Shown here: in pieces, positions 18,387-49,244 of the stretch
Numbering within the stretch: position 1 is the stretch's first letter
Layout of the letters: every line of letters begins with the position of its first letter
Source: Enoplolaimus lenunculus
Taxonomy: Eukaryota
DNA: 58,396 nucleotides
Direction of reading: 5' to 3'
Assembly (NCBI GenBank): GCA_030248215.1
Contig: JASANG010001128.1
Location: forward strand, 372,001-430,396
Position numbers and translations under genes: made by a program
The notes under the pieces: generated by a model
Told to the model about the DNA's origin: nothing
The model's database searches: none
The model's input: the letters and a program-made list of their open reading frames with translations, nothing else

Positions 18387-19850
18387 GGCCAATGTATAGC
18401 ACAGGGGCTTCCAGTTTTCCACGGTGGAAAACTTATAACCAGGAGTGTAGCGCAGCCACTCCTGTATGACGGCTAAATTTTCTGCTGATTTGGTAGGAAA
18501 ATTAAAAAATTTAATGCCTAGATTTTACCCTGGATTGGTAGGGAAATCTGAAGCATAGGTTTTGGTTGGAAAACGGGAAAAGTGGAAAATTCTAATGCCT
18601 AGATTTTCCCCTGGGTTGGTAGGGAAAATCTGAAGCATAGGTTTTGGTTGGAAAACGGGAAAAGTGTAAAATTCTAATGCCCAGATTTTCCCCTGGGTTG
18701 TTAGAGAAATCTGAAGCATGGGTTTTGGTTGGAAAATGGGAAAAGTGGAAAATTCGAATGCCTAGATTTTCCCCTGGGTTGGTAGGGAAAATCTGAAGCA
18801 TAGGTTTTGGTTGGAAAACGGGAAAAGTGTAAAATTCTAATGCCTAGATTTTTCCCCTGGGTTGGTAGGGAAAATCAGAAGCGTAGGTTTTGGTTGGAAA
18901 ACGGGAAAAGTGGAAAATTGAAATGCCTAGATATTTTCTTGGTTAGTAAGAAATATCTGAAGCAAAGGTTTTGGTTGAAAAGCGGGAAATGTGGAAAAGT
19001 GGAAAATTCAAAGGTAGGGCATAGGTTTTGGTTGGAAAACGGGAAAAGTGGAAAATTTTAATGCCTAGATTTTTACGCTGGGTTGGTAGGGAAATATGAA
19101 GCATAGGTTTGGTTGGAAAACGGGAAAAGTGGAAAATTCTAATGCCTAGATTTTTATTCTGGGTTGGTAGGGAAAATCTGAAGCATACGTTTTGATTGGA
19201 AAACGGGAAAAGTGGAAAATTCCAATGCCTAGATTTTTATCCTGGGTTGTTAGGGAATACCTGAAGCAAAGGTTTCGGTTGGAAAACGGGAAAAGTGGAA
19301 AATTCTAATGCCTAGATTTTTTCGCTGGGTTGGTAGGGAAAACCTGAAGCAAAGGTTTCGGTTGGAAAACGGGAAAACTGGAAAATTCAAGCGTAAGGCA
19401 TAGGTTTTGGTTGGAAAACGGGAAAATTAGAAAATTTTAATGCTTAGATTTACCCTGGCTTGGTAGGGAAAATCCGAAGTATAGATTTTGGTTGGAAAAC
19501 GGGAAAAGTGGAAAATTTAAAGGCCTAGATTTACCTTAGGTTGGTAGGGAAAATATGAAGCATAGGTTTTGGTTGGAAAATGGGAAAAGTGGAAAATTTA
19601 AAGGCCTAGATTTACCTTAGGTTGGCAGGGAAAATCTGAAGCATAGGTTTTCGTTGGAAAACGGGAAAAGTGGAAAATTTAAAGGCCTAGATTTACCTTA
19701 GGTTGGTAGGGAAAATCTGAAGCATAGGTTTTGGTTGGAAAACGGGAAAAGTGGAAAATTTAAAGGCCTAGATTTACCTTAGGTTGGTAGGGAATTTCTG
19801 AAGCATAGGTTTTGGTTGGAAGACGGGAAAAGTGGAAAATTTAAAAGGCC
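18387..19850 (+). mobile_element. Left arm only of a second foldback element (terminus plus ~77-bp tandem array)
   Basis: Starts with GGCCAATGTATAGCACAGGGGCTTCC, near-identical to 6715 onward. The array stops mid-unit at AAGGCC and abuts pPolB coding sequence. Confidence 0.9.
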
Positions 19851-22800
19851 TTTTTTCGTTGATGTCTTTGTCAGCTTTCCTTCTTTGATCGGAAACCTAA
19901 ATCGAACAATGTTGACACAAGTTTAATTTGCAGTATTCATAATCTGTCAGTTGTTATAGTAAAAATAATGTTTGTAATAAAACTTTTACAAATCGTACTA
20001 ATTGTCTTACCTCTTGCCCCAGGTGTTCGAATGCTGCCACCCGTTGATACTCAACAAATCTGTAAAGGCGGGTAATTTTCATCGCACACTTTTTAAGGTA
20101 GAATTTTAGCAGCGGTGTGCCTAAGAGTATCTTTGTTGCGTGGAAAGAGCCAATAAGAGAGCGGCGCGGTGTTGTCATCACATAGCCAACTCAGCATACT
20201 CTCGCATATGTTCCCCAATGTCTTCTATATTTATTTCAACATTTTTAAAAATAGGTGGCATTTCTTCCCATCGTTGTCTTGCTGCCTGGTCCCAATACGG
20301 TATTTGAACGTCAACTTCTACTATTCCAAACACTTCGTCAGCTAGAATACCGTCAACAACGTCTTTGATCGTCACGTTACTAGTGTCTTTAAATCCTGTC
20401 TTTGAGTTCTGACTAATCCAGTCTTGCCATTCAGGATCAATCGCAATCGCTTCACGTGTTTCGTCAAAACTGCACTCGGATCCAATTATAACTTCAGCGC
20501 CTAATGTCTGTAGGAACGCATGTTTCTTCTGTGTTTCTTCTTGGCGGTGCTGCATGTCATCATTATGTAAATAGCATCGGGGCATCCATGCCAGTAGCAA
20601 CCATCAAACACGATAATAATTGCCCGTTGGTTTCCGTACTTTCCAATTGGCACGTAACCATCCACTGGATACCGCGTTGCACCATTTTGGAACACTTTCT
20701 GTCCGCCATTGAATTTATGTTGAATGGTTAAATCGTCTCTGTTGAATCTTTTTATTAGCGCTCTCCGGTGGTACTCCACAAACAGAAGCTCCAAAAGACC
20801 GTACGTGTAACTTTTTGTGGCATTTAACTTTATGTCGTAGTTATGAGATATGGTTCGTAAATGTTCACTTTTTTCCATTTCAATCTCTCCTCGGGTACTG
20901 TTAACTGGAATGGGTTGTCCAACGTTGCCATAATGGGGACTCCATCGATGGGCCTCCAACGATATTGTCCTTGATCATCTGATGGATACCTTTGAACCGT
21001 TCATTGAATAGTGTGAATAACCCACCTTTCGGCAAGTGTTGCATCATTCTTTGCAAAGCTACGCCTGGCAGGCTTATTGCTTGTTTGAACATATTGATGC
21101 CCCATTCTTCGAACTGGTTAAACATTTTTTGCACCGCGGTAAGAAATGGTATTACATCCAGGTTATTGTACCACACCAACATGTCTTGCATTGTTTGGAA
21201 TTTTTCTTCACGCCAAACTTCCTTCACGTATTCGTAGTCGTCGTTGGTTATGTTTATCTGCCGAAGAGTGCTATAGTATGCTGCACGAGGCGGAAGATCA
21301 GTAACTTGCAGTTGATCCAAGCTTTCAAACCACTCATACGGCCAAAATCCTTTTCTCTGCTCCACTTGAAATGCTTTTAGAAATTTGTCGTAGCTTGTTC
21401 CCGGGCTTAAATAGTTTGTTATATCTAAAAACAGTAGATCCTCTGTAGCCAAAGACATAAACCCATTGTCTTTCTTTATGGTCTGGTGAATTTTCTCACC
21501 GTTGTAAATCAAATGAGGAATGTAGTATTGTTTAATTAGGTTTAGATCAAATTTGGCGCTGTTAAATCCCAATACTACAAGTTGTTTTAGCCACCTATAA
21601 AATCTGTTATAATACGACTTCCATTTCCTGGTTTCGTAGGCGCGGTTGCGAGCGTCGTGAAGGGCATCAGCTACATTAGCATCATTCTTTTCATGTTGAA
21701 GTAAACGTCGATATTCACGGTCGTATTGCTGGTGTAGAGTTCGTTCGGTCTGTAGTCGGTCAAACACGTCGCTGAATTGATGCTTAAGAATTGAGAACGC
21801 GGCATTACTAATTTCACAAAGATAAGCATGCATCTGCGAGACAATGTCCTCTCGTTCTCCAATAAAACACCGGGCGTCTTCATAACCGGGCACATTACTT
21901 GCGATAGATACACTCGCGGGTATTAGTTCTTTGGTGTATAAAAGCTTCTGGCCTTCGTGTTGTTCGACATTGAGCGACTTGAATCTGGCCTCAAAATCGT
22001 ATGTAGCACGAAATCGGTAAAAGTTTTCTGTAATATTGAAGCCTTCTTCGTTTAATTCCTGTTGTATCGTCTTCGTAAGTCCATAGCCGCCACCTTTGTA
22101 AATAAATTCTGTCACGTTGCCATTGCATCGTTTAAGGTGCCGCTGATGATGACTGTGATGGTTCCATATCCGATCGCATAACTCGCATCGCCAGGACTTT
22201 GTAAACTGTGGAAGATTCTTAATGTATGAAAAATGATTATCATAAAGATTTATGTTCAATGTGTCATGGAATAGACCACGTGACTGTCGTACAAGACATG
22301 CTGATGAAATAGGTGGAGGAGGTATGTCCGGAATCATAGGTTGGCTTCCTTCATTATCCGGTTCTACTCCTTCAGCATCATTTTCTTCTTCATCTCCATC
22401 ACCATTGTCTTCGTTGTCTTCCGCCATATCATCTAAAAACGATTTTACGCTTGTCTCTTCCTCATGTTCGCTTTCATCTTCTTCGGTAATGCCTTCGGCT
22501 TCTAGCTCATCTTCTTGTTCTTCTAAAAGCACTGCGCGTATCTGTGGAACTCCTTGATCTGCTTCACGAATTAATCTTTGAAGTTCTGTTTCAGGTCGCT
22601 GAACTTCTGTCTCATATACGGCAATGTTTACTTGGAACATGTCTTCTAATTTATCCAAATCGTCCATATCCACTCCATGAAAATTGGTTGTGTTTGTTTG
22701 ATTGCGCCAGTTGTTGCATAACATTGTTGTGTGAGCTTCGAATTCTGAATGGTTGCCCAATCTGTATCCATGCAACAGAGCTAGGCATCGAAAAAAGCAT

Positions 22801-23932
22801 TTGAATCGTCATATCTTCTTCCATATTTATCAGTTTCAAGCGAAATGATGCTCATTGTTTTTTATATGGTCCGGTAGCATCGGTGGGCGACCAATATGTG
22901 CATGCGCAACAAGTTTATTAACAACAACTGTCACATTAGTAATGCGGTCCACAACGAATTTGGCGTTAGGACGCTGCTGACGTGCCATTCAACAATATCT
23001 TGACCATCTAGTTTTTGTATCATGCTTTCGAAGTCTTTTTTGAAAGACACAAGCATCGGAGTATTGAAAAACCGCGTGTTGTTGCTGCTGTAGAAAAACA
23101 CTTTTTCATTAGTTAAAATATTGCGTAGAACAAAACCAAAATTCAGATTCCACTTAGCTCTGTGCTTCTGAACAGCGTACACTTTTCGAACAACTTGTTT
23201 AATTTCTTCTTCAGATGCTCTTTGTAATCTAAAGTTAAACTTGTCCTGAATCGGCCTTTTTTGATGATAATGTGTTCGAATTTGATGCCAGTTGGCTTTT
23301 AAAAGCTCATCTGTGCCGCCGTATAACACTGAGTCCGGACATGGTAGTGAATTTGTGGTTAGCATCTTCTGCTTTAATGACATCTGCGGAAACTTTTTCG
23401 GTGGCTGGTCTTCATTCGTCTGCATCGATTTCATTTGTCTTTTTTGTGAAAGTGTTTCATGGTCTTTGAGGTGCTCTGTCAATTTATCTTGGCACGAAAA
23501 GTTTTTGTGACATCTCGGACATGTAAGTTTTGGTTCTTTATGAATAGTTCTTATGTGTTGTAGCAAGCTCTTCTTCGCTGTAAAACTCTTTCCACACCTT
23601 CTGCATTCGATTTCTGTAAAAATAACAACAAATTCTCACATGTGTTAATAGTTAATAGATTAAATAGAAAAGTGCTTTTGACCTCTAGACCACGTATTTA
23701 ATAATTAATTATATGACTGATGACACTGTTTGTTCCTGGCATATAGCCTTAGATTTCAAAATCAGTGAAGCATTATGTATGCACGATCAATCATACGGCA
23801 TGTGGTTAATTGCTAACATTTCTGGCTCTCTAAATCAGTGAAGCGTTATTAATGCACTATCTGTCGCAAATAGTTAAGTAAAGTACACGTCATCTATGTT
23901 TGAACGAGCTTACTGTTGACCTCATCAATCAT
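19851..23932 (-). pseudogene. pPolB: Protein-primed family B DNA polymerase, frameshifted and 3'-truncated, with two N-terminal C2H2 zinc fingers, an acidic insert and a VSR-like nuclease insert
   Basis: CRRCGKSF...HIRTIH, CPRCHKNF...HLKDH; ExoI ATYDFEA; ExoII VLGFNSAKFDLNLI; KGFWPYEW; ExoIII WYNNLDV; IVGGPS; VDGY...FDGCYWHGC; FGIVEVDV; MPPIFKN; RRSLIGS; VSDQRRKADKD. The KxxxNSxYG and DTDS motifs lie beyond the truncation. The start exon 23932-23914 is inferred. Confidence 0.92.
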
Positions 23933-24146
23933 GCTTAATGGAGTCACTAGCTATGATTAATTGCTTTCAAAATCAGTGAAGCGTTATTAATGTACCATCT
24001 GTCGCAAATAGTTAAGTAAAGTACACGTCATCCATGTTTGAACGAGCTTACTGTTGACTCATCAATCATGCTTAATGGGGTCACTAGCTATGATTAATTG
24101 CTTTCAAAATCAGTGAAGCGTTATTAATGCACCATCTGTCGCAAAT
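23757..24146. promoter_or_regulatory. Direct-repeat array in the divergent intergenic region of the Polinton (putative bidirectional promoter/enhancer)
   Basis: AAATCAGTGAAGC(A/G)TTAT at ~23759, 23832, 23970 and 24107; two near-identical ~138-bp units. Regulatory function is inferred from position only. Confidence 0.55.
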
Positions 24147-24208
24147 TTCTTAGCTATTTAAAGGTCAAGTCATTTATAAAATTGATTCATTTGTAGCTTA
24201 AATTTACA

Positions 24209-24979
24209 ATGGACGGTCGCATCATTTCTCATATATTTTACTCGACTATGGACCAGCAGGATTGTGTAAGCTGGTGGAATGAGAGATCGGGTAGGATTAC
24301 AGCTTCAAATTTTGGTCGGGTTCGAAGTGCTGCATCTGACAAAGTTCTCAAAAAGTTGGTTTGTAATATTAATACACCAGCTAATACTTTCATACCCACT
24401 CCTTGTTTAGTTGGTATAACTAAAGAAGAGAATGCAAAACAGGCATACATAAGGCACTATTCTAAAGAGTTGAATGTTCCAGTAACAGTGCACAAGTGCG
24501 GTCTTTGTGTTCCACTTCAAGCTCCCTTTATAGGTAGTTCTCCAGACGGTATTGTCACTTCACCACAGTTTGCACAACCAAGAGTGCTAGAGATCAAGTG
24601 TCTCTATGATACGGAACATATCCCACGCAGACTATTAGACATTGGGTTGAGTCGTAAGTCTAGATTCTACTGTAAAATTGATAAATCTACTGGAAAGTTT
24701 ACGTTGAAAACAACCCACAAATATTATTCACAAATTTTAGGTGAACTCGCCATTACGGCTTTACCTGTAGCAGATTTGGCACTTTATGCTCCAAGAACGA
24801 AAGAAATAAAAGTTGTAACCGTTCATTTTAATCGTGAGCACTGGCAAGCTCTTTTTGAAAAAATTAGGTATTTTTACGACAACTTCATCAATGGAAAGAT
24901 TTTCGCTCAACCCCCAGAACCGAGTCGAGCAACCACTATCTCGGAAATCGTTGAGACTGAACCTATGCAGATTAACTAA
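24209..24979 (+). CDS. YqaJ/lambda-exonuclease family (PD-(D/E)xK) nuclease
   Basis: WWNERSGRITASNFG; GITKEENA; CGL...PFIGSSPDGIV; LEIKC; HKYYSQILGEL. Intact 256-aa ORF. Confidence 0.9.
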   Translation: MDGRIISHIFYSTMDQQDCVSWWNERSGRITASNFGRVRSAASDKVLKKLVCNINTPANTFIPTPCLVGITKEENAKQAYIRHYSKELNVPVTVHKCGLCVPLQAPFIGSSPDGIVTSPQFAQPRVLEIKCLYDTEHIPRRLLDIGLSRKSRFYCKIDKSTGKFTLKTTHKYYSQILGELAITALPVADLALYAPRTKEIKVVTVHFNREHWQALFEKIRYFYDNFINGKIFAQPPEPSRATTISEIVETEPMQIN

Positions 24980-25265
24980 TCCGTTACCAATCATTCATTT
25001 CCGTCATATATCGTCTGTTCATTTTAAAAACGTGAAACCAAACAAATCGTATTTCGACCTTAATAAGTCACAGTTAAAAAAGCTCATATATCACACTTAC
25101 CTTAACGCTAATGATATTTTTCAACAGTCAGAAGACAAATTTGCAATTACTATGAATGTAGGTAGCGCGATAGGTGTAGTGAAGCCTGAGCACCGTACGT
25201 CAGACACTTTGAGAATAATCTACGTATCCACCGGTCACAGAATAATAACAGCCTTTCCTTATTAA
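24891..25265 (+). CDS. Small protein resembling bacterial polymorphic-toxin RNase domains (BECR/EndoU-like); start uncertain, overlaps the YqaJ gene
   Basis: Pattern HIxxxHF...KSYF...helix...VGxxIG...LRIIY...IITAFP at the C-terminus. Confidence 0.5.
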   Translation: MERFSLNPQNRVEQPLSRKSLRLNLCRLTNPLPIIHFRHISSVHFKNVKPNKSYFDLNKSQLKKLIYHTYLNANDIFQQSEDKFAITMNVGSAIGVVKPEHRTSDTLRIIYVSTGHRIITAFPY

Positions 25266-25443
25266 TGAATATTACTAATATATTGGGTTGTTAATTAATA
25301 TTTGATTTATGCTCTATTTCTATAAGCTGTATTATAAAATTATAGTGTGCTTATCTAAAATAAATACAAAAGTAGCTTTTTAGTGCAATTACTTATTGTG
25401 TAGCGTTATTTCGCATCTATCCATTATTTACGGGCACATCATT

Positions 25444-25914
25444 ATGAATAACCATTTTTCAAAAAGTGATCTTAACAATTTATGCGATGCAATAATGGCA
25501 CTTGTTAAAGAAAATTGCGCGGGGTGTCAAGAACAACGCTCGATGGAAGAATTTTGGGAGCATGGTGGTTTCACGGGGTGTCTGTATGCGTTTGATTTTC
25601 ACGCCGATGTCTATATAGATTGTGCTATTCAAACACTGTCTTTATCATACTCAGCGCGAGATCATGCAATTCGTGTCATTTCTGAGTACTCCTACGCCGT
25701 GTATCAGCATACACACCCGTTACCTGTGGCAGATAACTTAGAAGACCAAATGTTTCGGGAAATGAACTTCGAGCATTCTGTAGAAGTGATAGCAACACCA
25801 GAAGATTATCCTCGTATAGTGAAGAAACTTTTACAGTTACGCGGAAATAACTCAGATGACTACAAAAACTATTTATCAAAAACACTGAATGAGCTAATTT
25901 TGCTACGGCCCTAA
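25444..25914 (+). CDS. Polinton accessory protein with CxGC...H...GCL putative metal-binding motif
   Basis: ENCAGCQEQRSMEEFWEHGGFTGCL. Intact ORF followed by AATAAA. Confidence 0.65.
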   Translation: MNNHFSKSDLNNLCDAIMALVKENCAGCQEQRSMEEFWEHGGFTGCLYAFDFHADVYIDCAIQTLSLSYSARDHAIRVISEYSYAVYQHTHPLPVADNLEDQMFREMNFEHSVEVIATPEDYPRIVKKLLQLRGNNSDDYKNYLSKTLNELILLRP

Positions 25915-26061
25915 CTGTACAAACTTTGATTATGATATTTTATTACTTTGCAAATATGGTAATTATGTGCAGTAACAATGGAAACTGTAAAGCGTATTTT
26001 TGAATAAATAACCATTAAAAAGGTCTTCTATACTGCAATCAGCAAGTTTCTGATATAAAAC

Positions 26062-26415
26062 ATGGAGCGTGATAGGGTAATTGCAATACTTTTGGCAACA
26101 GTTTCTTTATTATTGTCCATCAGCAATATAGGATACTTGATTGAATATACCCAGAATTATGATAACAGTGTTGTGGAGATGGGTTATTGTCAGCAGTATT
26201 ATTTGGGGATAGAAACAAAAGTAACCATTTGTTCACCACATATTTTTATTCGAAAAAGTAATGAGAAATTTCAAATCTTGCCTATGGAGTTTAGAAGACT
26301 AAAGAAAGTTGCTTGTAAGGATCATCACACTTATACTGAGCAGTATTTAAACGCTACGGAGGGTAAAAGAGTAGTTCTAAAATCAAATGAAGTACGGGAT
26401 TTATGTAAGTTTTAA
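26062..26415 (+). CDS. Small protein with N-terminal signal/TM helix, possibly with a PC4-like beta domain
   Basis: Hydrophobic VIAILLATVSLLLSISNIGYLI. YLGIETKVTIC...IFIRK...ILPMEFRRL only loosely echoes PC4. Confidence 0.55.
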   Translation: MERDRVIAILLATVSLLLSISNIGYLIEYTQNYDNSVVEMGYCQQYYLGIETKVTICSPHIFIRKSNEKFQILPMEFRRLKKVACKDHHTYTEQYLNATEGKRVVLKSNEVRDLCKF

Positions 26416-26463
26416 AAGAGCTAAACTGTAATAGCATCACATTGTCTCAAAAACTAATTATTT

Positions 26464-27536
26464 ATGGAAAAGTTATACTTTGATCCCGCTAACCCTCTAG
26501 GACTAAGCTCTATTCAAAATTTATATAAAGCGGCTAAAGAGAATGGACTAGATGTCACACTAAACGATGTTAGACAGTTTTTATCGGGCGAGCCAGCTTA
26601 TACACTTGTCAAAAAACGTCCCAAGAAAAATTTCAAACGCGTAAGATACATAGTTTCAGACCTTTATGATATATTTCAAAGCGATTTGGCTGATATGCAA
26701 GCACTAGCTAAGTTTAATGATGGCTACAAGTATATTCTAGTGGTTATCAATTGCTTTTCTAAGTTTTGTTGGGGTGTTCCTTTGAAAACCAAGACCGGTG
26801 AAGAAATAGTTAAGGCTCTTAATGCAATTTTAGATCCATTATTACCAGAAAAACCTAGAAATTTCATAGTAGATAGAGCAAAAGAACATTACAGTAAACC
26901 GATCACTGAATTATTTAAATCAAGTGGTATCAAATTGCTTTACACCACTAATGACGAGTCTAAAACCGTTTTTGCAGAAAGAAAAATCCGTGACATAAAG
27001 CGTAAAATTTATATATACCTAAAAAACATAATACTTGGCGGTATATTGATGTTCTACCAGATATCATAAAATCACTTAATGCGCGCAAGGTACGCACCAC
27101 AGGATTTAGACCGATAGATGTTACTAGGCAAAACGAACATGTTGTACGTAAGAATTTATACCCCAGCACTTTCAGTCGGCATCCCAAAACGTATAAGTTC
27201 ACTGTAGGAGACAGAGTAAAACTATTGAAACGACCCTTTCCGTTCGCAAAATCATTTTATCCAAACTGGACAAAAGAAGAATTTTTAGTTGACCAACAAA
27301 TCCCATCTTCCCCACCAACTTATCGCATTAAGTCTATTACGGGGGAGAGTATACTTGGCATATTCTACGAACAAGAAATGCAAAAAGTTATACGAAAAGA
27401 AGAAATTTACCAAATTGAAAAAATTATTAAATGTCGCAAAACTAAAACAGGTGCAACAGAGTTTTTAGTTAAATGGAAAGGTTATCCCGCAGATCAATCC
27501 AGTTGGGTTAAGGAAAAAGACATAAACAAGCTTTAA
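26464..27536 (+). CDS. Retroviral-like (rve) integrase with C-terminal chromodomain; one -1 frameshift in the A-run at ~27021-27026
   Basis: LYFDP; FQSDLADM; YILVVINCFSKF; IVDRAKE; AERKIR. After adding one A: KHNTWRYIDVLP...FTVGDRV...FAKSFYPNWTKEEF...FYEQEMQKV...YQIEKII...FLVKWKGYP...SWV. Confidence 0.93.
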
Positions 27537-27550
27537 TCGTTGCTTATATT

Positions 27551-28081
27551 ATGCATTGGAAAGTAGTAAATACGACTATTTGTGGAACATTTGAGAAATG
27601 TATAAATTTGTATGATTTGGCTTTGCAGTTAAAATTGCAATATAATCCTCGTAAATTTAGTGGTATAGTTTGGCACCCAGAATTAGGCGGTTGTTGTTTG
27701 ATTTTTGGATCGGGAAAATTCACCATTGTTGGCCTTAATAATCCCTTAGTAGCAAAATCAATTGTTGGGGAAATCAAAAAGCTAATCGGTGATTGTTCTC
27801 ATACGTATTACATGAAAAATTACGTGGTTTCCTTAGATACTAATCATAATTTCAATCTTCACAAGCTATGCAGTGTGCTATTCGCAGAACGGTATAACGT
27901 GGTATTCGATCCTCACGATTTAATGCCTCCGCTAATGCTAAGATTAGATCGAGCAACAGTATTAATACACCACACCGGTAAAGTTATCGTTACGGGAATT
28001 AAAAAGTACAAACATATTGAACCGCTTATACACCGTATCAATACCATTATTGTACCACACCATGTATGTAGTAATCGATAG
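27551..28081 (+). CDS. Divergent TATA-binding protein (TBP)-like, two-repeat core only
   Basis: Repeat 1: VVNT, INL, YNPRKFSGIVW, CLIFGSGKFTIVG. Repeat 2: MKNYV, FNL, FDP, VLIHHTGKVIVTG. The 176-aa length matches the TBP core. Confidence 0.88.
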   Translation: MHWKVVNTTICGTFEKCINLYDLALQLKLQYNPRKFSGIVWHPELGGCCLIFGSGKFTIVGLNNPLVAKSIVGEIKKLIGDCSHTYYMKNYVVSLDTNHNFNLHKLCSVLFAERYNVVFDPHDLMPPLMLRLDRATVLIHHTGKVIVTGIKKYKHIEPLIHRINTIIVPHHVCSNR

Positions 28082-28385
28082 AGTTAATCCGGAATTTTCG
28101 TATATAGTTGCACATCTACCACAACCTCTAGATTCGTCAAAAGCAGAAATAGCAGTAGTTCAGTGTAGTTTACCCCAAAAAGTACGGTTTCTACAAACAG
28201 GTTGCATTGAACCTAGTATCTACAACGATGGAAGTATGCGTTTTTTACATTCCAATACAAAATTTAGTCCTATTCCGCTTTATCATAAGCTGAGATACAG
28301 TAAGCTCGACACTATACTAATAGATACAGGAGTAACATTGTCAGAAACAGATAAAGTCTTAGTTGTTCTTCATGTAAATTATTAA
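28062..28385 (+). CDS. Minor capsid protein (penton/PX), minimal 107-aa version
   Basis: LPQPLD...EIAVVQCSLP; CIEPSIYND...RFL; PLYHKL...LDTILI; terminal VLVVLHV. Positioned upstream of the MCP. Confidence 0.7.
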   Translation: MYVVIDRVNPEFSYIVAHLPQPLDSSKAEIAVVQCSLPQKVRFLQTGCIEPSIYNDGSMRFLHSNTKFSPIPLYHKLRYSKLDTILIDTGVTLSETDKVLVVLHVNY

Positions 28386-28419
28386 AAAGACTAAATAACT
28401 ATAGTGTAGTATATTTGAA

Positions 28420-28602
28420 ATGGATCAAGCTCTTATCCGGCTACTAGCAGGCAGCTCTAGGCATTCAGTTCCCCTAAAGTTAAGTAAAGTAAAGGGGCGC
28501 CGTAAAACTATTAAAAAGGCACGTAAAACCAACAAGAACAAAATAAGTAGGCAAAAAACTAGCAACAAGACAAAGAAAAGAAGGGTCAAGAAATTATATT
28601 AA
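28420..28602 (+). CDS. Small Lys/Arg-rich protein, putative virion DNA-condensing core protein
   Basis: 60 aa with a highly basic C-terminal two-thirds, located between the penton and MCP genes. Confidence 0.65.
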   Translation: MDQALIRLLAGSSRHSVPLKLSKVKGRRKTIKKARKTNKNKISRQKTSNKTKKRRVKKLY

Positions 28603-28604
28603 TC

Positions 28605-29960
28605 ATGTCTCTTCATCCTCAACCAAAATGCAGTGTTTCAGGATTAGATTTTACTAGCTTACCACCAATACAAGATGAAATTAACAGTGTCCAAGTTGTT
28701 GAAAGTGCTTGTTTTACGGGTTTACCATCAGATGATTACCTAACACCCTTAGAATTTAGGTTTGGTGGCTCTTCGGATTATATTGATGTTGACTCAATTA
28801 TGTTATATTTAAAAGTAGAAATAATAAAGAAAGACAACAGTTCTTCCCAAGAAAAACGAGATTCTCAACCAGCACCAGCACCAAGCAAATCAGCGAAAAA
28901 GAGGCCTAAAAGGCAAGCAGGATTAGGAAACGTGGACGGTCCAGTAAATCTTTTCCTATATTCTTTGTTTGATAGAGTTGAACTTAAAATTGCAGGCAAA
29001 TCAGTATCCCTTGAGCAGTCAAATTACCAGTACATAATGTATACCCTTTTTCACTTATACTTTCCGGCAACCGTACGAAAAACTCTTCTTCAACCAGCAA
29101 TTTATGAACCCGATCAACCGTATAGTTTTGACAGTGAACCAGACGCAGTTGCTCAAAGAACTTCAATGCTAGATACAAATAAAGGCGAAATATATGGCAG
29201 AGTTTTCACAGATTTTCTTAACACGGGGAGATTTTTACCGGGTATTGTACCCTTAAGTTTAATTTTTCATCGAGCTAAACCCAACTTTTGCATTATGGAA
29301 AATTCAAAGAAAACTTATAACGTTAAGATTAAAACGGCAAAGCTTTATACACCATATGTAACCTTAACTACCGCAAGCTTAACAAACTATCACAAAATTT
29401 TGTCCACGTCGGGTTTCAAATATCCGATAGTACGCCACAACATTAGCACCAAAGCGCTGGGAGTGGGAGATATGAATGTTTCATGGTCGTTTATTAGTAA
29501 TGGAAAGATACCAAGAAAGATAGTGTTAATGCAAGTAGGCGCATCAGCTTATAACGGACAAATTGACAAAAACCCGTATAATTTTGAAGATTTTGGGTTA
29601 CAAAGTTTGCAGGTGTTTGTTAACAAAAAGTCATTTCCAAGTAGTGTACCGCTAACTTTTGAACGATTTGGAGATATATACCGCACGTACCTAAATTTCT
29701 TTAAGGCTACAGATTACGTTAATTTAGATCCAGGCTTTGATGCATTTGGCTATGGGGCAGGTTACTTTATGATACCAATAAGTTTAACGAGAGATGGGTC
29801 AACAAATTGCGGCTACCACTCCAACCCAGAGCATGGAAACCTTGATATAGAGTTAGTTTACGCAAAACCATTAACAGAACCCATAATGTTACTACTTTTG
29901 TCAGAGTACGATAGTGTTTTAACTATAAAAGAAAATGGAGAGTTCAGTTGGCAGCAGTAA
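28605..29960 (+). CDS. Major capsid protein (double jelly-roll, Polinton PY/hexon)
   Basis: LDFTSLPPIQ; PLEFRFGGSSDYID; PVNLFLYSLF; RFLPGIV; IPRKIV; AYNGQIDKNPYNF; GNLDIELVYAKPL; SEYDSVLTI. Intact 451 aa. Confidence 0.92.
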   Translation: MSLHPQPKCSVSGLDFTSLPPIQDEINSVQVVESACFTGLPSDDYLTPLEFRFGGSSDYIDVDSIMLYLKVEIIKKDNSSSQEKRDSQPAPAPSKSAKKRPKRQAGLGNVDGPVNLFLYSLFDRVELKIAGKSVSLEQSNYQYIMYTLFHLYFPATVRKTLLQPAIYEPDQPYSFDSEPDAVAQRTSMLDTNKGEIYGRVFTDFLNTGRFLPGIVPLSLIFHRAKPNFCIMENSKKTYNVKIKTAKLYTPYVTLTTASLTNYHKILSTSGFKYPIVRHNISTKALGVGDMNVSWSFISNGKIPRKIVLMQVGASAYNGQIDKNPYNFEDFGLQSLQVFVNKKSFPSSVPLTFERFGDIYRTYLNFFKATDYVNLDPGFDAFGYGAGYFMIPISLTRDGSTNCGYHSNPEHGNLDIELVYAKPLTEPIMLLLLSEYDSVLTIKENGEFSWQQ

Positions 29961-30647
29961 CGTAGCTACCACTTTAGACACACCAATATTACTAGAGCAA
30001 CCGTATAATGTATTGTGACCGGCTCTACTCAGTCTGGTAAATCGTATTTTGTACGTAAACTATTGGAACATTGTGATTCAGTTCATACAACACCATTTAA
30101 ACGCATATATTATTGCTATGGCATGCCAGAGGAAGAGTTATTTATCGTAAGCGCTCCCACTCTTCAAATCATACCAAACTTTCCCGATTTTATTTTTGAA
30201 GAAACAGATATTCCAGTTCACACACTCATAATCCTAGACGATTTTATGGATAAATTAATAGGAGACAAAAGGTTAATCACCCTATTCACTAAAATGAGGC
30301 ATCGGTTAGTATCGGTAATTTTGATTGTTCAGAATTTATATTTTTGCCCGAAAGTTGGTCCATGTATCCGCAGAAACACTGATTATTACTTTCTTTTCCA
30401 AAATAGGGGAGACCAGGCAATGATATCTAACCTTAGCAGCAGAATGTTTCCAGGCAAAAAGAATTATTTACTTGGAGCACATAAAAAATCATTAAAAAGG
30501 CAATACGGTTACCTAATGGTTAATCTCAAACCTAATATTCCCCCGGAGTTTGTGCTTTCAGAAGGGATATTACCGTGTGAACAATATTATGTTTATCTTT
30601 CATTGTTTTTCGTTAATGAATTATGTATTTTCTATAATTTAAGATGA
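29935..30647 (+). CDS. A32/FtsK-HerA packaging ATPase; true ATG probably 29935, with a 1-nt deletion near 30008
   Basis: Walker A GSTQSGKS; Walker B LIILDDFM; LFTKMRH; ILIVQN; IRRNTDY; YGYLMVNL. Confidence 0.92.
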
Positions 30648-30997
30648 GTAGTGCGTTAAAAGAAAATTTATCTACTCTCCAGTACTTACAAACAGCACCA
30701 AAAGCGTATGTAAAACAAATTCTATCAAAACCTACAAATAGTTTGGTACAAGTATTATCAGAAATTTGTAGAAACCTCGAAGTAGGAAATATAAAACTTA
30801 GACCAGAACAAAAATTGTGGGTTAAAAAACAAATTCGAAAAATTTTCGCATTAGGATCTAAACGAACATCACTAGCTCGTAAAAAATTAATATTAAAAAG
30901 GGTAGGTCACGATATAGTTCCTAAACTTTTAACGTTAGCTAAGAAAACATTGAAATCTATATTTGACTATAAACATGGTGAAGGAAATATTTTATGA
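30644..30997 (+). CDS. Conserved small basic Polinton virion protein (E..xN...GN family)
   Basis: LVQVLSEICRNLEVGNIKL...K-rich region...amphipathic IVPKLLTLAKKTL. ATGA overlap with the ATPase stop codon. Confidence 0.7.
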   Translation: MSSALKENLSTLQYLQTAPKAYVKQILSKPTNSLVQVLSEICRNLEVGNIKLRPEQKLWVKKQIRKIFALGSKRTSLARKKLILKRVGHDIVPKLLTLAKKTLKSIFDYKHGEGNIL

Positions 30998-31464
30998 ATG
31001 CTGTATATAACATGTCTAGTGATCCTAAAAAATTCGCATTAGATGAAGAATCGTTATTTGAAAAGTTAAAAGCATCGCGCGCACAATCTTCGCAACAACA
31101 ACAACCAACATCAAGCAATAACTCAATCCAGATTGTAAACGGCGCTACAGCAACAACAACGTTACAAGATATTGTAGAAGTCTTACCTCGGCAACTTCGG
31201 AATAAAGCAAAAATTCTTGCACATTACCTTGAAGACTACGCTACCGTGAACAATAAGGAGCGCATTATTTACCCAGACGGCACAGTAGGATCACACTTTA
31301 TTGATTTAGCACGATATTTTACGTCTTCACCGATACTCAGAATTCCTCATCCACCGGATGCAACACGATTCGCTGAAGTCATTAAAAAAGCAGGCGTACC
31401 AGCAAGTGCAATCACGAGAAATGGATCAAAACAACACGGTCGAAAGCAACTATGGGAATTTTAA
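30994..31464 (+). CDS. Conserved Polinton protein of unknown function
   Basis: LPRQLRNKAKIL...GSHFIDL...F...AGVPASAI motif recurrent in Polintons. ATGA overlap with the previous gene. Confidence 0.7.
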   Translation: MNAVYNMSSDPKKFALDEESLFEKLKASRAQSSQQQQPTSSNNSIQIVNGATATTTLQDIVEVLPRQLRNKAKILAHYLEDYATVNNKERIIYPDGTVGSHFIDLARYFTSSPILRIPHPPDATRFAEVIKKAGVPASAITRNGSKQHGRKQLWEF

Positions 31465-31972
31465 TCCGATAGAACATAAACGAATCATTACTGGACTTGG
31501 TGGCAGCAAGCGTTTGTTATTTTTTACAGGATGGTCTCCACTATCAAACTTTCACGTTGCTAAATTCACAGTTAAAGGAATTGGCTATCACAGTGCAGAA
31601 CAGTACTATCAAGCAAAGAAGGCATATCATTTCGGTGACTACAACTTATACTATCGCATTCTACAGTGTTAGTCTCCATCTCGAGCAAAAGAACTCTCTC
31701 AGGAAATTGACGGCTATGATCCAGTAGAGTGGGAGAAACAACAGGACAATCTAATGCTAGAAACTTTACGCGCAAAATTTAACGGAAACGCGTTACTCAA
31801 ACGACAACTCACTGACACGGGTGACATAGAATTGCTAATCGCCACACAACACGACCAATATCTTGGCACAGGTCTACCGCCATATGATCCAAGCTATGAA
31901 ACAAAAGAGGAATTCCCCGGAAAAAATATGCTTGGAAAGTTGCTTATGATTGTTAGAAGCGAACTAAAATAA
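31421..31972 (+). pseudogene. NADAR (YbiA-like) family hydrolase with a single in-frame TAG at 31670-31672
   Basis: FF...PLSNF; SAEQYYQAKKA..FGD; P..AK; M....AKF; LTDTGD; D...GTG; PGKNMLGKLLMIVR. Both ORF pieces are in the same frame. Confidence 0.88.
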
Positions 31973-32175
31973 TTATTTTAATATCTTTTAAACATTGTGT
32001 TATATGGTTTCATTTGTTTTAGAATAAACGAAAAAAATTATCTGCGCTTCTATGTGAAGCAACCCCGTTTAACGCTACACCTTAAAACAATGAATTCTTT
32101 ATATTAATATTTCAGCTATATATTTATACTTTAAACTTAACATACTTATAATTTACGTGCAAACCAATATATACG

Positions 32176-32730
32176 ATGGCGAAACATATTCAAATAATTC
32201 AACTTCTCCAAGCTAATCACCAGCTCAACGTACACTCCATAGTTTACGCCCTACACCAACACATGTCCTTAGATACGGCGCAAGATTTGTGGTGTCCAGT
32301 GTTTGGTGACATGCAGAACAGGTTTTACAGTTGGCTTCTACAGCAGTCCGGTGATGTATTTCAAGATTTCGTAATAGCACTTTACACTGAAGGCCAGCTA
32401 ACGTTGTACCGAGTGTTCGTGGCAGCGTGTAAGCAATTTGATTATCACATTGAAGAACCTAAAGCTATATCTCGAGCTGATTATATTCAGAACTACTTAG
32501 TTAACGGACAATATTTATTTTGGAGTAAAGAATTTGAACGTGAGCAGAATGAGAGTGACTTGTGTGGATTGGGCGCACGGTTTTTTATCAAGGAATTATT
32601 GAAGAAAAAAGACAAAATACAACGATTACTTTGCATGCCAGGGTCTCTGTCTGAGCGTTTTAAAGCGATGGAAAAAGATTATGAAGCTATTGATATCGCA
32701 CTAGAAATACAGGACTATTTTGTTGTTTAG
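32176..32730 (+). CDS. Polinton accessory protein with N-terminal CARD/death-fold-like region
   Basis: LNVHSIVYALHQ...FYSWLLQQSGDVFQDFVIALYTEGQLTLYRVF resembles CARD helices 2 and 4-6. Intact ORF followed by AATAAA. Confidence 0.55.
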   Translation: MAKHIQIIQLLQANHQLNVHSIVYALHQHMSLDTAQDLWCPVFGDMQNRFYSWLLQQSGDVFQDFVIALYTEGQLTLYRVFVAACKQFDYHIEEPKAISRADYIQNYLVNGQYLFWSKEFEREQNESDLCGLGARFFIKELLKKKDKIQRLLCMPGSLSERFKAMEKDYEAIDIALEIQDYFVV

Positions 32731-32833
32731 ATTGATCTATTTTATGCCTTGTAATATAAAGAAAGAAATAAATTCATTGCGTATTTATTGTTGTCTGTGA
32801 TTTTCTCAGTTCAATATAGTCAAAGATATACTT

Positions 32834-33427
32834 CTTTTACCGTTCTTGAAAATTCCCACTAGTTCTCGAGTTATGGCCCAAAAACCTCAAAATTTCAATT
32901 TTCCCGATTTTTCAACCCTCCATATCTCACCCCCTAGGCCCCATAGCCAAAAAATAAAATATATAATTTCAAGAGTTGTAACACCCCACCACATTGCAAA
33001 AGACCCCATCCCGATATCTCTATTTAGTAAAAAGTTATTAACAATTAAAGAAAGTTGATTTTCACAGGTTTTCCCCCTAAAAATTATCGAAGGTTACATA
33101 GCTAATATCGAAAAAAATTTATTAGCTTATTTGATAGAGCAAAAAATTCTAGGGAATACGTCTTTTACCGTTCTTGAAAATTCCCACCAGTTCTCGAGTT
33201 ATGGCCCAAAAACCTCAAAATTTTCAATTTTCCCGATTTTTCAACCCTCCATATCTCACCCCCTAGGCCACATAGCCAAAGAATAAAATATGTAATTTCA
33301 AGAGTTATAACACCCCACTACATTGCAAAAAACCGTATCCCGATATCTATTTCCAGTAAAAAGTTATTAACAATTACAGAAAATTGATTTTAACAAGTTT
33401 TACCCCTAAAAATATCGAAAATTACAT
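32834..33427. repeat. ~328-bp tandem duplication, possible remnant of the Polinton subterminal/TIR repeats
   Basis: CTTTTACCGTTCTTGAAAATTCCCAC...TCTCGAGTTATGGCCC starts at 32834 and again at 33162. Confidence 0.7.
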
Positions 33428-46016: not shown

Positions 46017-49000
46017 TTAGGCATCTCGTGATTCTCGATCATTAATAATCCATTCTAACGCAGCTTCAACATTACCACCTGTCGCAGTTAGCGCCCGACG
46101 GTTTTCGTTCTCGTCAATGAACCCCATATCGGCCAATTGAGCCAAAGCTTCCGGTGATATTTCAATATGGGCCGGAGGTGACGGATTTCGGGCCGGTCCC
46201 TCGCCTGATCCCATACCTAACGCTTGACTGAGTGCTTCCTGAAAATATTTAAATTTTGAAACAAGAAATTCAAAAAGAAACTGTATATTATTCAACAATC
46301 TCTACAGTGAATAGGCTAAAATATTAAAATTTGTTACAAAACATTCGATATGAAAAAATACGGTTTAGTGTTGCAATTTTGGATTGAATTGAAGTTGCCC
46401 CTTAAGACAATATTAATTAAGGTCTCGGTTTACAGTATCAATTAAAATATCCAATGAATTATTATATAAGGAAAACTGTAATTGATCCGAATTCTGACCG
46501 CTCGATCAATTTTTGGTAATAAAGCAAGAGAGATATTAGCGCTTTAGCCAAACAAATACGTCATCATTCTTCAGATTCCACTAATTCAAATTTCTCGCAC
46601 ATAATAGCATGAATAATATGTATACACCGAGGGAAATCCTACTAACTATCCCTAATTGAAATTGCCAGAAACATTACTTGGTATTAGAAACTAAATATTA
46701 TAATTACACCTTTGTTAGTCTATAGCCTGTAAGTCTAGGTTTCAACCTAGCATTATACCAGGAATCTATTTAGTTTGAATATTGCGTTGTACCTTTGACT
46801 AAATACGTATAAAATTTATGCCCATATTCTCAATACGTGTTCAATACTTGCCACCAGTCGGTAATAAATCGAGAAACGTTTAAACTAATGATGGACTCCT
46901 AAACTATGCACATCATTTGCTTTAAATTTTACGCTGCCAGTAGTGTAAGAATTTCAATTTTTAAGCCCTTGGAATTCGCTTGTGTGAAGACCTATTACAA
47001 ACTGGCGATAGGTCATACACGCATTCCTCAATACCAACACTTACCTGGAACAACGACGCCGTAATAGTTGGCGGTTCTGTGCGGCCTCCACGGCTAGGCT
47101 CCGTATTTGACCTACTGGGTGCTGAATTATCGACCCCTGAGGGAGCATTCGCAGACCCGCCAGCGGATGCAGGCTCACCAGTCGCTGACGCAATTGCATG
47201 TGCCAAATGTTCCACAGTGAACTGGGGCATTACAGGAGCGCTTGAAGGACCTGCCAAATTTCCTCCGTAAGGGCGAATTGTCGAGGGTTCGGCGGCACCC
47301 TGCCGGCTACTACGATAGCCCCCAGTTTGGCTAGCGCCTTCAGTATCGTCCTCATCATCGTCTGTATCCTCGCTACGATCCATAAACATATCGTGAGGCC
47401 CTGGATTTCCAAATAGACCCATCAGCGAGCCAGCAGTACCTCCTGTTGATGCTTGCTGCTTGACAACCTTAAAAACACAAAATTTCATTTAATTTTAAAA
47501 ATGTGCTACAATTACATTTTAAATTCCGGCACTAAGACTTACGTTAACAAAAATATCGCAACCACAATTTACAACTGGTCGTATGCATAAAAATAATTTT
47601 GCAATTAATCGTTCATAAAACCAAGAGTGAGTGATCACGGTTAGCAACGCTATGCAACTGGGTACATTCCGTGCGCAAAACAATGTATCCAGCTCACGTT
47701 GCGTTTTTGCCCAACCCCCACTCAACATGGTGGGTATACATACAGCACAATAAGACTGTCAATGTAAACTGTTGCACTACTGTCAACGCTTTCGAGTTTA
47801 TGTGACTACATTCTGCAACACATATATTTACTGTCGACTTTTGGTATTAAAACCACTACGTAATACACTGTAATGTTACTGATATTTAATTTATAATTTT
47901 GTTATAAATTTTCTCATGTTTTATGTTGTTAATTTCAATATTCCACTTATTCCACTACTGTACCAAAAAATTCTAAGATAAATGTTTTCACTGATTATGC
48001 GCCGTTCACAATGATTTTTGAGTGCCTGACTTCGATTAGTACTACAAGTATTGGGGTTACCTCAAGTGCAAATTTGAAAATGTACACTCGTTAGTCCCAA
48101 CCATATTAACTCTAGTTTCTCCGTTACGCTGATCCTAACGCATGTCACAAAAAATGTTTTGAGACTTCTTATGGCAGTGCTAACAAATCACAGACACTCA
48201 AAACGTCAATAGGAACACAACACAAAAGCGGCGCGTTTGTGTTGTGTCCTATTGTCGTTTTGAGTGTGTGTAACGCGGTGTGTGTCAAAAATTTTCTGGA
48301 ACTCTCAAAAACTTCCCAATTGTCAGTCTCAAGTTCACAGTATCAATTTCGGTCTCAGTCTTTACTTTTCCATTGATAATCCGAAAACTCATCATAATGC
48401 GCATCCAAATAGTGGCATCTTCCCCATTAGAACGACACTGGGGGCTGTATATTAATTTTGCTCAACTCACCTCTTCGTGCAAAATCCCAATCAGTGCTTG
48501 AGTGCCTTCAATCAACGCCGGATGTTCGGCAAGTGTCCGGCTAGCGTTCCGCTCGCTTAGATAATGTGCCAGCAAATAATGATCTTTGAGTACAGCTTGA
48601 GCTACCGGATCTTCCGCTAGTCCGGGTACAGTTCCGGCTGTAATCAAATTGCGTACTGTATCACGACCGGATGCAATACGTCGCAGTAAACTGCGTTGGG
48701 TGTGATCGGAAAACGTTGCTGCAAATGCTTCGACAACAGACTCAATTTGATCTTTTGACACCGGAACTTTCGGTTTGTCGTCTGAAAATAAATCAGATTC
48801 GGATAATCGAAAAATTTCGAATTCCGAACCACCGAAATTCAAAATATAATTAACTTAATTTTAATTGACACCAGAATTTTGCAGTGTGTCACCTGAAAAT
48901 AGAACCGGGTTTTTATTCAATAGATTAGTAGCTTGTTACAAACCCAATTACTTTAACGCCTTACCTTTCGGCTTAACCGCACGCCGGAACACAATTACAG

Positions 49001-49244
49001 TCGAATCATCCTTGATCATAGGATTCGCAAAGGTGAGTGCTTGTTCGCTTCCATCGTTACTTTTCGAATCCAACAAAGGCTTTCCTGCAAATGTCGGTAC
49101 CAGTTCTTCTTCGTTGAAACCGGTTTGCCGTGCCGCTTCTGCCTTGAGTCGTGACACCGTCAGCGTCGCCGTGGACGCTATTTCTGGCGACAGTTTGAGC
49201 GTAGCGCTTCGATCAGAACCACAAAACAATTTCACGGTAACCAT
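46017..49244 (-). CDS. UBL7: Ubiquitin-like protein 7 homolog (UBL-UBA); exons 49244-48965, 48781-48471, 47467-47045, 46238-46017
   Basis: N-terminal UBL domain; central PGLAEDPVAQAVLKD...HPAL; C-terminal UBA LAQLADMGF...RALTATGGNVEAALEWI. Splice phases are consistent. Confidence 0.88.

What the first reader, a model, noticed from the sequence alone, without database searches (positions are those of the whole stretch)
27551..28081. Polinton encodes its own divergent TATA-binding protein inside the integrase-capsid block
Seen: an intact, intronless 176-aa ORF with both TBP repeats, 14 nt after the integrase stop and overlapping the penton start. Repeat 1 keeps both DNA-intercalating Phe (YNPRKF, LIFGSGK). 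In repeat 2 the equivalents are replaced: YEPELFPG becomes FDPHDLMPP, and LIFVSGK becomes LIHHTGK. The first change also alters the acidic TFIIB-binding stirrup. Known: TBP homologs are typical of giant NCLDVs and are not core Polinton genes; TRF2/TLF lose these Phe and do not bind TATA. Inference: a small virus-like element carries a promoter-specificity factor to redirect host Pol II to viral late promoters, or a dominant-negative TBP decoy.
Basis: partly seen in the sequence, partly recalled or inferred. Interest (0 to 1): 0.9.

Follow-up and report, generated by a model that had tools for sequence, protein, structure and literature searches.

The report
Polinton's half-rewired TATA-binding protein
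A decayed virus-like jumping gene (Polinton) carries an intact but strongly altered copy of the cell's TATA-binding protein, and its predicted capsid genes sit behind a shared non-standard TATA-like box that this protein likely reads to switch them on.

Summary
Observation confirmed. ORF 27551-28081 is a two-repeat TBP (Pfam E 1e-20; model pLDDT 95, TM 0.83-0.86 to the best-matching solved TBPs) between integrase and minor-capsid genes of a decayed Polinton. Repeat 1 keeps both Phe; repeat 2 has Met125/His140 plus a one-residue stirrup insertion. These changes are not decay: a 46%-identical relative shares all three, and copy differences favour silent sites (pN/pS 0.27-0.39). The stirrup acids survive as Asp. 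ATTAAAAAG occurs six times in the element, all on the sense strand before capsid-module genes, never before TBP. Distant Polinton TBPs (17 of 22 loci beside an integrase) have their own clade-specific boxes in the same positions. Best reading (0.55): a minimal late-promoter specificity factor, like herpesvirus TBP mimics; binding, expression and Pol II use are untested. I found no paper analysing them.

The parts
27551..28081 (+). Divergent TBP, 176 aa, intact ORF; F36/F52 kept, M125/H140 replace the repeat-2 Phe pair, D120/D123 stirrup with one inserted residue
26464..27536 (+). Retroviral-type integrase with C-terminal chromodomain, split over two frames in this copy
   Evidence: rve E 1.8e-9; Chromo E 4e-14; frames
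28062..28385 (+). Probable minor capsid protein (penton), 107 aa; identity inferred from position and a weak profile match to the syntenic ORFs of related loci
   Evidence: hhalign E 9e-4, probability 23%; no Pfam hit
28420..28602 (+). Short basic ORF, possible core protein (inference from composition)
   Evidence: no Pfam hit
28605..29960 (+). Probable double-jelly-roll major capsid protein, 451 aa
   Evidence: Atlas feature score 0.98, one cluster with PF21738 DJR-like in 30% of members; tblastn E 1e-18 to L001; no direct Pfam or PDB hit
30009..30647 (+). A32-like packaging ATPase; this frame lacks a start codon (broken near the 5' end)
   Evidence: Pox_A32 E 6e-7
30644..30997 (+). Small basic ORF with a counterpart after the ATPase in L016 (the label PZ-like is recalled)
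   Evidence: tblastn E 7e-5 to L016
30994..31464 (+). Unassigned 156-aa ORF preceded by the box
19954..22808 (-). Protein-primed family B polymerase in several out-of-frame pieces, cut short at a satellite array; identity from recalled exonuclease motifs and weak matches to the Pfam-confirmed polymerase of L016
   Evidence: tblastn E 6e-5; BLASTP E 0.019; no Pfam, PHROG or PDB hit of its own
26014..26022 (+). ATTAAAAAG box, 48 nt before ORF 26062
26411..26420 (+). Variant box 53 nt before the integrase ATG (admitted to the pattern after inspection)
27998..28006 (+). ATTAAAAAG box inside the TBP coding sequence, 64 nt before the minor-capsid ATG
28381..28389 (+). ATTAAAAAG box, 39 nt before the basic ORF
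28510..28518 (+). ATTAAAAAG box, 95 nt before the major-capsid ATG
30491..30499 (+). ATTAAAAAG box inside the ATPase frame, 153 nt before ORF 30644
30892..30900 (+). ATTAAAAAG box, 102 nt before ORF 30994

Best explanation
The ORF encodes a saddle-fold TBP homologue that belongs to a Polinton lineage and likely works as the element's own promoter-specificity factor, predicted to bind the element's (N)ATTAAAAAG box and to start host RNA polymerase II on the capsid-module genes. Shown: fold, position in the element, purifying selection, Met/His replacement shared with a distant relative, and the box in front of capsid-module genes but not in front of TBP. Inferred: TBP would be made first from a host-read promoter and then switch on the boxed genes, a two-step cascade; the intact repeat 1 would grip the A-rich 3' half of the box as in normal TBP, while the rewired repeat 2 would read the non-canonical 5' half; the retained Asp stirrup would still take TFIIB, while the basic helix-2 face used by host regulators (residue list recalled) is lost. 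In this particular insertion the system is probably dead, since integrase, polymerase and ATPase are broken.
For: Fold. Not decay: P0002 (46% identical) has the same Met, His, Asp pair and one-residue insertion; 20 of the 40 listed copy differences are silent, pN/pS 0.27-0.39, p 7e-5 to 0.003, and none of the 40 substitutions falls in the six key codons. Box: 6 in the element against 0.56 expected, 0 of 1000 shuffles; it is the commonest 9-mer, a level reached by some 9-mer in 8 of 200 shuffles; 4 copies inside ORFs against 0.71 expected with the protein sequence fixed, P 0.004; all on the sense strand. Relatives: 17 of 22 loci with a distant TBP have an integrase match, 4 in the same integrase-TBP order. 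In the window plus 9 of those loci a clade-specific box precedes the minor capsid gene in 6 of 6, the major capsid gene in 4 of 4, the integrase in 8 of 9 and TBP in 0 of 10. The residue after F190, P191, constrains the first TATA position (PMC12529657 passage), so repeat 2 faces the 5' end, where the box departs from TATAAAAG. Precedent: herpesvirus TBP mimics read TATTWAA late promoters.
Against: No binding, expression or start-site data; no RNA holder was listed (not evidence either way). Box patterns were chosen after seeing the sequence, so p-values are optimistic. Spacing in the window is loose (39-153 nt) against mostly 33-48 nt in relatives; the ATPase, YqaJ, NADAR and ORF 32176 have no box; two more copies lie outside the element. 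Four of six boxes are in Lys-rich coding sequence. In KSHV ORF24 all four Phe are required, so loss of two could mean loss of TATA-type bending; Giardia TBP, which lacks three, prefers single-stranded DNA. The context of P0002 is unknown, so the box could not be checked in a second Met/His element. The boxed loci belong to a different TBP clade (23-37% identity in tblastn) and several are near-duplicates.
Confidence: 0.55

Rival explanations
1. The box is read by host factors (TBP/TFIID or another), and the element's TBP is only a non-specific helper that boosts transcription of viral DNA, perhaps with PC4-like proteins.
For: The boxes remain TATA-like, and one clade's box (L015) is nearly canonical. 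PC4 genes sit next to TBP in several relatives (Pfam for L001, L012, L013).
Against: The box differs by clade while TBP repeat-2 residues also differ by clade; a host-read box would be expected to stay near TATAWAWR.
Confidence: 0.2
2. Decoy or dominant-negative TBP that soaks up TFIIB or other host factors, or shuts off host transcription, without reading the box.
For: Two of four intercalating residues are replaced while the acidic stirrup is kept, the layout a TFIIB sponge would have. TRF2 lost intercalating Phe and does not bind TATA (PMC10005294 passage).
Against: Both central Asn, both repeat-1 Phe, P191 and most phosphate contacts are conserved, as expected for a DNA binder; the helix-2 basic face that a decoy for host regulators would keep (recalled) is lost; a decoy does not explain the box.
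Confidence: 0.12
3. A non-transcriptional DNA-binding role, such as binding single-stranded replication intermediates or condensing or packaging the genome.
For: The gene lies inside the integrase-capsid block; Giardia TBP without three Phe binds ssDNA (PMC12209930 passages).
Against: TBP is the one gene of the block that lacks the box in 10 of 10 elements, unlike the structural genes.
Confidence: 0.08
4. A neutral, decaying host TBP retrocopy that landed in the element.
For: Intronless; the element copy is decayed; some copies of the gene carry a stop or frameshift; an AU test does not reject grouping with eukaryote-like TBPs (p 0.18).
Against: Only 23% identical to the plant TBP core; the odd residues are shared with a 46%-identical relative; silent changes are in excess; GC3 0.31 lies within the range of the element's genes, 0.15-0.39.
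Confidence: 0.03

Closest known systems
Cellular TBP (Pfam PF00352; yeast 1ytb, human 1cdw, archaeal 1mp9/2z8u)
   Same: Two-repeat saddle, TM 0.83-0.86 for the best matches; both Asn, F99/F116, P191 and most phosphate contacts kept; acidic stirrup kept as Asp.
   Different: 20-26% identity; no N-terminal extension; F190 and F207 replaced by Met and His; one-residue stirrup insertion; helix-2 basic face lost; encoded inside a mobile element.
TBP-labelled gene of MELD viruses and related elements (Starrett et al. 2021, PMC8502044, Fig. 5 legend)
   Same: A TBP-like gene in a mid-size Polinton-like element is already recorded as a label (passages).
   Different: The legend belongs to the section on non-animal datasets; the figure is not held, so the carrier is unknown to me. 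No residue analysis or promoter link in the passages or in sections 3.1 and 3.2; 0 hits for TBP, TATA, TFIID, PC4 in the one supplement held as text.
Beta/gammaherpesvirus TBP mimics (KSHV ORF24) with TATTWAA late promoters (PMC12529657)
   Same: Viral TBP fold paired with a non-canonical TATT-type box in front of structural genes, using host Pol II; three of the six boxes here read TATTAAA.
   Different: ORF24 is a multi-domain protein that keeps and needs all four Phe, lacks the acidic stirrup, binds Pol II directly and works with five partners. The Polinton protein is a bare 176-aa core with the stirrup kept; no partner homologues were found. Analogy, not membership.
NCLDV TBP-like proteins (e.g. 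ASFV B263R homologues, Heterosigma akashiwo virus TBP)
   Same: Viral TBP fold; Foldseek matches at E down to 4e-12.
   Different: Only about 6-18% identical, lower than cellular TBPs; these viruses mostly use their own RNA polymerase (recalled), and none was found in this element.
TRF2/TLF and Giardia TBP
   Same: Natural TBPs that lost intercalating Phe; Giardia also has a Phe-to-Met change.
   Different: Here the loss is confined to repeat 2; no TRF2 sequence was on hand, so kinship was not tested.

Membership tests
TBP family (PF00352) | Two TBP repeats above the curated cut-off | tested here: met
   73.3 bits against 22.9, two stretches
TBP family (PF00352) | Saddle fold | tested here: met
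   pLDDT 95.5 with a 34-row alignment; Foldseek E 9e-14, TM 0.83. Single-sequence fold failed, pLDDT 35
Canonical TATA-binding TBP | Four intercalating Phe | tested here: not met
   F36, F52 kept; M125, H140
Canonical TATA-binding TBP | Acidic C-terminal stirrup for TFIIB | tested here: inconclusive
   Asp for Glu at both sites plus one inserted residue; binding not tested
Canonical TATA-binding TBP | Binds and bends TATAWAWR | not testable with these tools
   needs binding assay
Polinton/Maverick (adintovirus) | Retroviral-type integrase | tested here: met
   rve and Chromo hits; split over two frames
Polinton/Maverick (adintovirus) | Packaging ATPase | tested here: met
   Pox_A32 E 6e-7
Polinton/Maverick (adintovirus) | Protein-primed DNA polymerase B | tested here: inconclusive
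   pieces match the L016 polymerase weakly; no library hit
Polinton/Maverick (adintovirus) | [quoted passage not shown] | tested here: inconclusive
   Atlas lead to PF21738 in 30% of one cluster; minor capsid hhalign E 9e-4 to unannotated syntenic ORFs
Polinton/Maverick (adintovirus) | Adenovirus-type maturation protease | tested here: inconclusive
   no Pfam hit among the element ORFs scanned; the copy is truncated
Polinton/Maverick (adintovirus) | Terminal inverted repeats and target-site duplication | tested here: not met
   none found for this decayed copy; left end runs into a satellite array
TRF2/TLF | Sequence kinship to metazoan TRF2 | not tested
   no TRF2 sequence was fetched
Herpesvirus vTBP (ORF24 class) | Extra N- and C-terminal domains, four Phe kept, no acidic stirrup | tested here: not met
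   176-aa bare core, two Phe, acidic stirrup

The most novel reading that the evidence does not exclude
Polintons run the smallest known late-gene switch: one 170-aa TBP with a privately evolved promoter box, and TBP repeat 2 co-evolves with the 5' half of that box lineage by lineage. The Met/His clade seen here has dropped the 5' Phe pair altogether and reads a TATT-type box, converging on the herpesvirus solution. The family would be a natural library of altered-specificity TBPs, each with its cognate box.
Probability: 0.35. Interest if true: 0.8.

Novelty: new variant of a known kind. Interest (0 to 1): 0.6.

Why it matters
How Polintons time capsid gene expression is an open question, and whether they are real viruses depends on it. 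A TBP plus matching box gives a direct, testable mechanism with host polymerase. It would also show that TBP can recognise a promoter without the repeat-2 Phe pair held to be essential, and supply orthogonal TBP-box pairs for studying TATA recognition.

Tried and rejected
Word-based homologue search with P0001 alone: 0 of 24 candidates passed; with the P0001+P0002 alignment only P0002 and two distant TBPs, 3 of 382, so the Met/His clade stays at two close members. Viral-contig scans with P0001, P0002, the capsid protein, A2 and A4 found nothing. No genome was held for the window. Single-sequence folding failed. No RNA holder listed: no evidence on expression. PDB, PHROG and phage searches did not identify the polymerase or capsid. 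An AU test on 80 rows did not finish; the 27-row test was inconclusive. The VIA second look did not run. Complex prediction with TFIIB was not run: only an archaeal stand-in was on offer and a pass would follow from likeness to solved structures. A PC4 reading of ORF 26062 was considered and got no Pfam support. The repeat asymmetry count (3 against 21 non-aromatic) is biased by the query and is kept as a hint only. Literature searches and term searches in five Polinton papers found no analysis of a Polinton TBP; subscription papers, Repbase and preprint supplements were not visible.

Full report
1. Observation. The ORF is as described: 176 codons at 27551-28081, 14 nt after the stop of the integrase frame and overlapping the next ORF by 20 nt. 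Pfam TBP matches in two stretches at E 1.4e-20, and 35 of 36 PDB sequence hits are TBPs. With a 34-row alignment AlphaFold2 gave pLDDT 95.5 and pTM 0.87; Foldseek returned TBPs first, E 9e-14, TM 0.83-0.86 for the best matches, at 20-26% identity. Viral TBP-like proteins match at about 6-18% identity. In yeast numbering, mapped through the plant core of P0008, N69, F99, F116, N159, P191 and most phosphate contacts are kept; F190 is M125, F207 is H140; E186 and E188 are D120 and D123 with one inserted residue; the helix-2 basic residues are mostly lost (which residues form which surface is recalled, except the Phe, stirrup and Pro roles).

2. Surroundings. The gene lies in a roughly 13-kb element (about 19,860-32,780): polymerase pieces and a C2H2 zinc-finger ORF on the minus strand, then YqaJ nuclease, three unassigned ORFs, integrase, TBP, probable minor capsid, basic ORF, probable major capsid, A32 ATPase, two ORFs, NADAR and one more ORF on the plus strand. 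Integrase, polymerase, ATPase and NADAR are broken in this copy and no terminal repeats were found. No whole genome was held.

3. Decay or adaptation? Three DNA runs of one study hold the stretch. In run X1 at least three different contigs cover the same part of the TBP gene, so several copies exist; one carries a stop and a frameshift. Of 56 differences 40 were shown: 20 silent, 20 not (one a stop), pN/pS 0.27 unweighted and 0.33-0.39 with transition weighting, p 7e-5 to 0.003. Each difference was judged alone and pooled over contigs, so this is a rough figure. None of the 40 substitutions falls in the codons of F36, F52, D120, D123, M125 or H140; one low-depth contig lacks three bases at the His pair. 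The HMMER search of 1.84 billion representatives gave 365 hits, 150 listed; the best, P0002, is 46% identical without gaps and shares the Met, the His, both Asp and the insertion. The changes therefore predate the decay of this copy. P0002 lies on a 3,962-nt contig whose content I could not read. Among 147 listed hits, 9 have His at the F207 site and 2 (P0002, P0093) have both Met and His; 67 short divergent hits show 3 non-aromatic residues at the repeat-1 sites against 21 at the repeat-2 sites, but the query itself biases that count.

4. Is TBP a regular gene of these elements? A profile search returned 83 relatives among 1176 candidates, several in clusters of 12-66 members on megabase contigs, the pattern of a multicopy element. 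A scan of metagenome contigs with a 21-row alignment of one such clade gave 22 loci. Seventeen have an integrase match, 3 a match to the window's capsid protein, 5 to its ATPase; L014, L016, L017 and L018 have the same integrase-then-TBP order, and L016 also holds a Pfam-confirmed protein-primed polymerase. The five loci without integrase are 1.1-1.8 kb long. Several loci are near-duplicates, and these TBPs are a different clade from the window's.

5. Origin. In an 80-row tree the window protein and P0002 pair at 97, apart from the group that holds the cellular TBPs (support 89). In a 27-row tree they lie on the mobile side at 85, but an AU test does not reject joining them to eukaryote-like TBPs (p 0.18). 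Canonical animal TBP, TRF2 and NCLDV sequences were not in either tree; group labels came from the first tree and lengths, and only four rows carried source names. A recent retrocopy is excluded by divergence; the donor is unresolved.

6. The box. Earlier notes of this scan mentioned a shared TATA-like motif in other TBP-bearing Polintons, so I looked for one. ATTAAAAAG occurs 8 times in the window against 2.7 expected (1 of 100 shuffles); 6 are in the element against 0.56 expected (0 of 1000), it is the commonest 9-mer there, and some 9-mer reaches 6 in 8 of 200 shuffles. All six are on the sense strand, 39-153 nt before ORF 26062, minor capsid, basic ORF, major capsid, ORF 30644 and ORF 30994; a variant lies 53 nt before the integrase. 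Four are inside coding sequence, against 0.71 expected when the protein sequence is held fixed (P 0.004). TBP, YqaJ, ATPase, NADAR, ORF 25444 and ORF 32176 have none within 25-125 nt. In 9 of the 22 loci, picked for length and gene content, other boxes occupy the same places: CATAAGAR (L001, L004, L009), YGTAAGAA (L011, L013, L014, L016, L017) and TATAAGAG-like (L015), strongly sense-stranded (7:0, 11:0, 10:0 in L001, L016, L017) and mostly 33-48 nt before the ATG. Across all 10 elements the box precedes the minor capsid gene in 6 of 6, the major capsid gene in 4 of 4, the integrase in 8 of 9, and TBP in 0 of 10. Patterns were chosen after inspection; L004, L011, L013 and L014 are not significant alone.

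7. Mechanism. In TBP-TATA complexes Phe pairs kink the DNA at steps 1-2 and 7-8 (PMC10005294 and PMC1935006 passages), and the Pro next to the repeat-2 Phe favours T at the first position (PMC12529657 passage), so repeat 2 faces the 5' half. The window's box keeps an A-rich 3' half and departs from TATAAAAG in the 5' half, in any of three possible registers; the base before ATT varies (T in 3, C in 2, A in 1). The rewired half of the protein thus faces the rewired half of the box. I infer an early TBP that switches on boxed late genes through host TFIIB and Pol II (0.55). Against this: nothing was shown to bind, KSHV ORF24 needs all four Phe, and Giardia TBP without three Phe prefers ssDNA. 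Rivals: host-read box with a non-specific helper (0.2), decoy (0.12), non-transcriptional role (0.08), neutral retrocopy (0.03).

8. What is known. PMC8502044 (passages, sections 3.1 and 3.2, one supplement searched as text; figures not held) lists TBP only in the Fig. 5 legend for MELD viruses and related elements; its preprint does likewise (passages; supplements closed). Term searches in PMC12220804, PMC11131425, PMC8097293 and two 2026 preprints found no TBP or TATA-box mention in the main text. Eight library searches on Polintons or viral TBPs showed no analysis of a Polinton TBP or of a Polinton late box; subscription papers and Repbase were not searched. This scan had 30 earlier notes on Polinton TBPs in at least 4 other genomes; these are unchecked AI notes, not evidence. 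None matched this protein by sequence.

9. Verdict. A real, selected, element-borne TBP; a new variant of a known kind. What this window adds is a lineage that lost both repeat-2 Phe in a conserved way, paired with a TATT-type box, and evidence that boxes differ by clade. Interest 0.6; 0.8 if clade-specific TBP-box recognition holds.

Noticed in passing
window 19812-23888 versus 24000-33000: The polymerase arm is covered by one identical contig in runs X1 and X2, while the integrase-capsid block is covered by many differing contigs: other copies may lack this polymerase or carry a very different one, as in module swapping.
   Followed up: no
window 23786-24146: A 138-nt tandem repeat (about 2.3 copies, 95% alike) between the divergent arms, holding CRE-like and AP-1-like words (labels recalled); a candidate early enhancer.
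   Followed up: no
window 31358-31972: NADAR-domain gene (E 7e-21 for the second piece), split over two frames, inside the element.
   Followed up: partly
window 24209-24979: YqaJ-like alkaline exonuclease gene, intact, in the element.
   Followed up: no
L001:1321-1803, L012:1034-1582, L013:1464-1760: PC4 (p15 coactivator) genes next to TBP in related Polintons: a possible two-gene transcription module. None was detected in the window.
   Followed up: partly
window 27698-27987: A contig in X1 and X2 fits only the two repeat cores of the TBP gene and is unlike between them (joint 27731-27954): a more divergent subfamily of the element may exist in the same organism.
   Followed up: no
window 22931-23635 (-): C2H2 zinc-finger ORF upstream of the polymerase pieces, possibly the polymerase N-terminus or a regulator.
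   Followed up: no
window 6824-9214 and 18506-19851: An 81-83 nt satellite in both orientations; the element's left end is cut at one array.
   Followed up: no
window 48948-49244 (-): Ubiquitin-like ORF, probably an exon of a host gene (Pfam E 4e-4, below cut-off).
   Followed up: no
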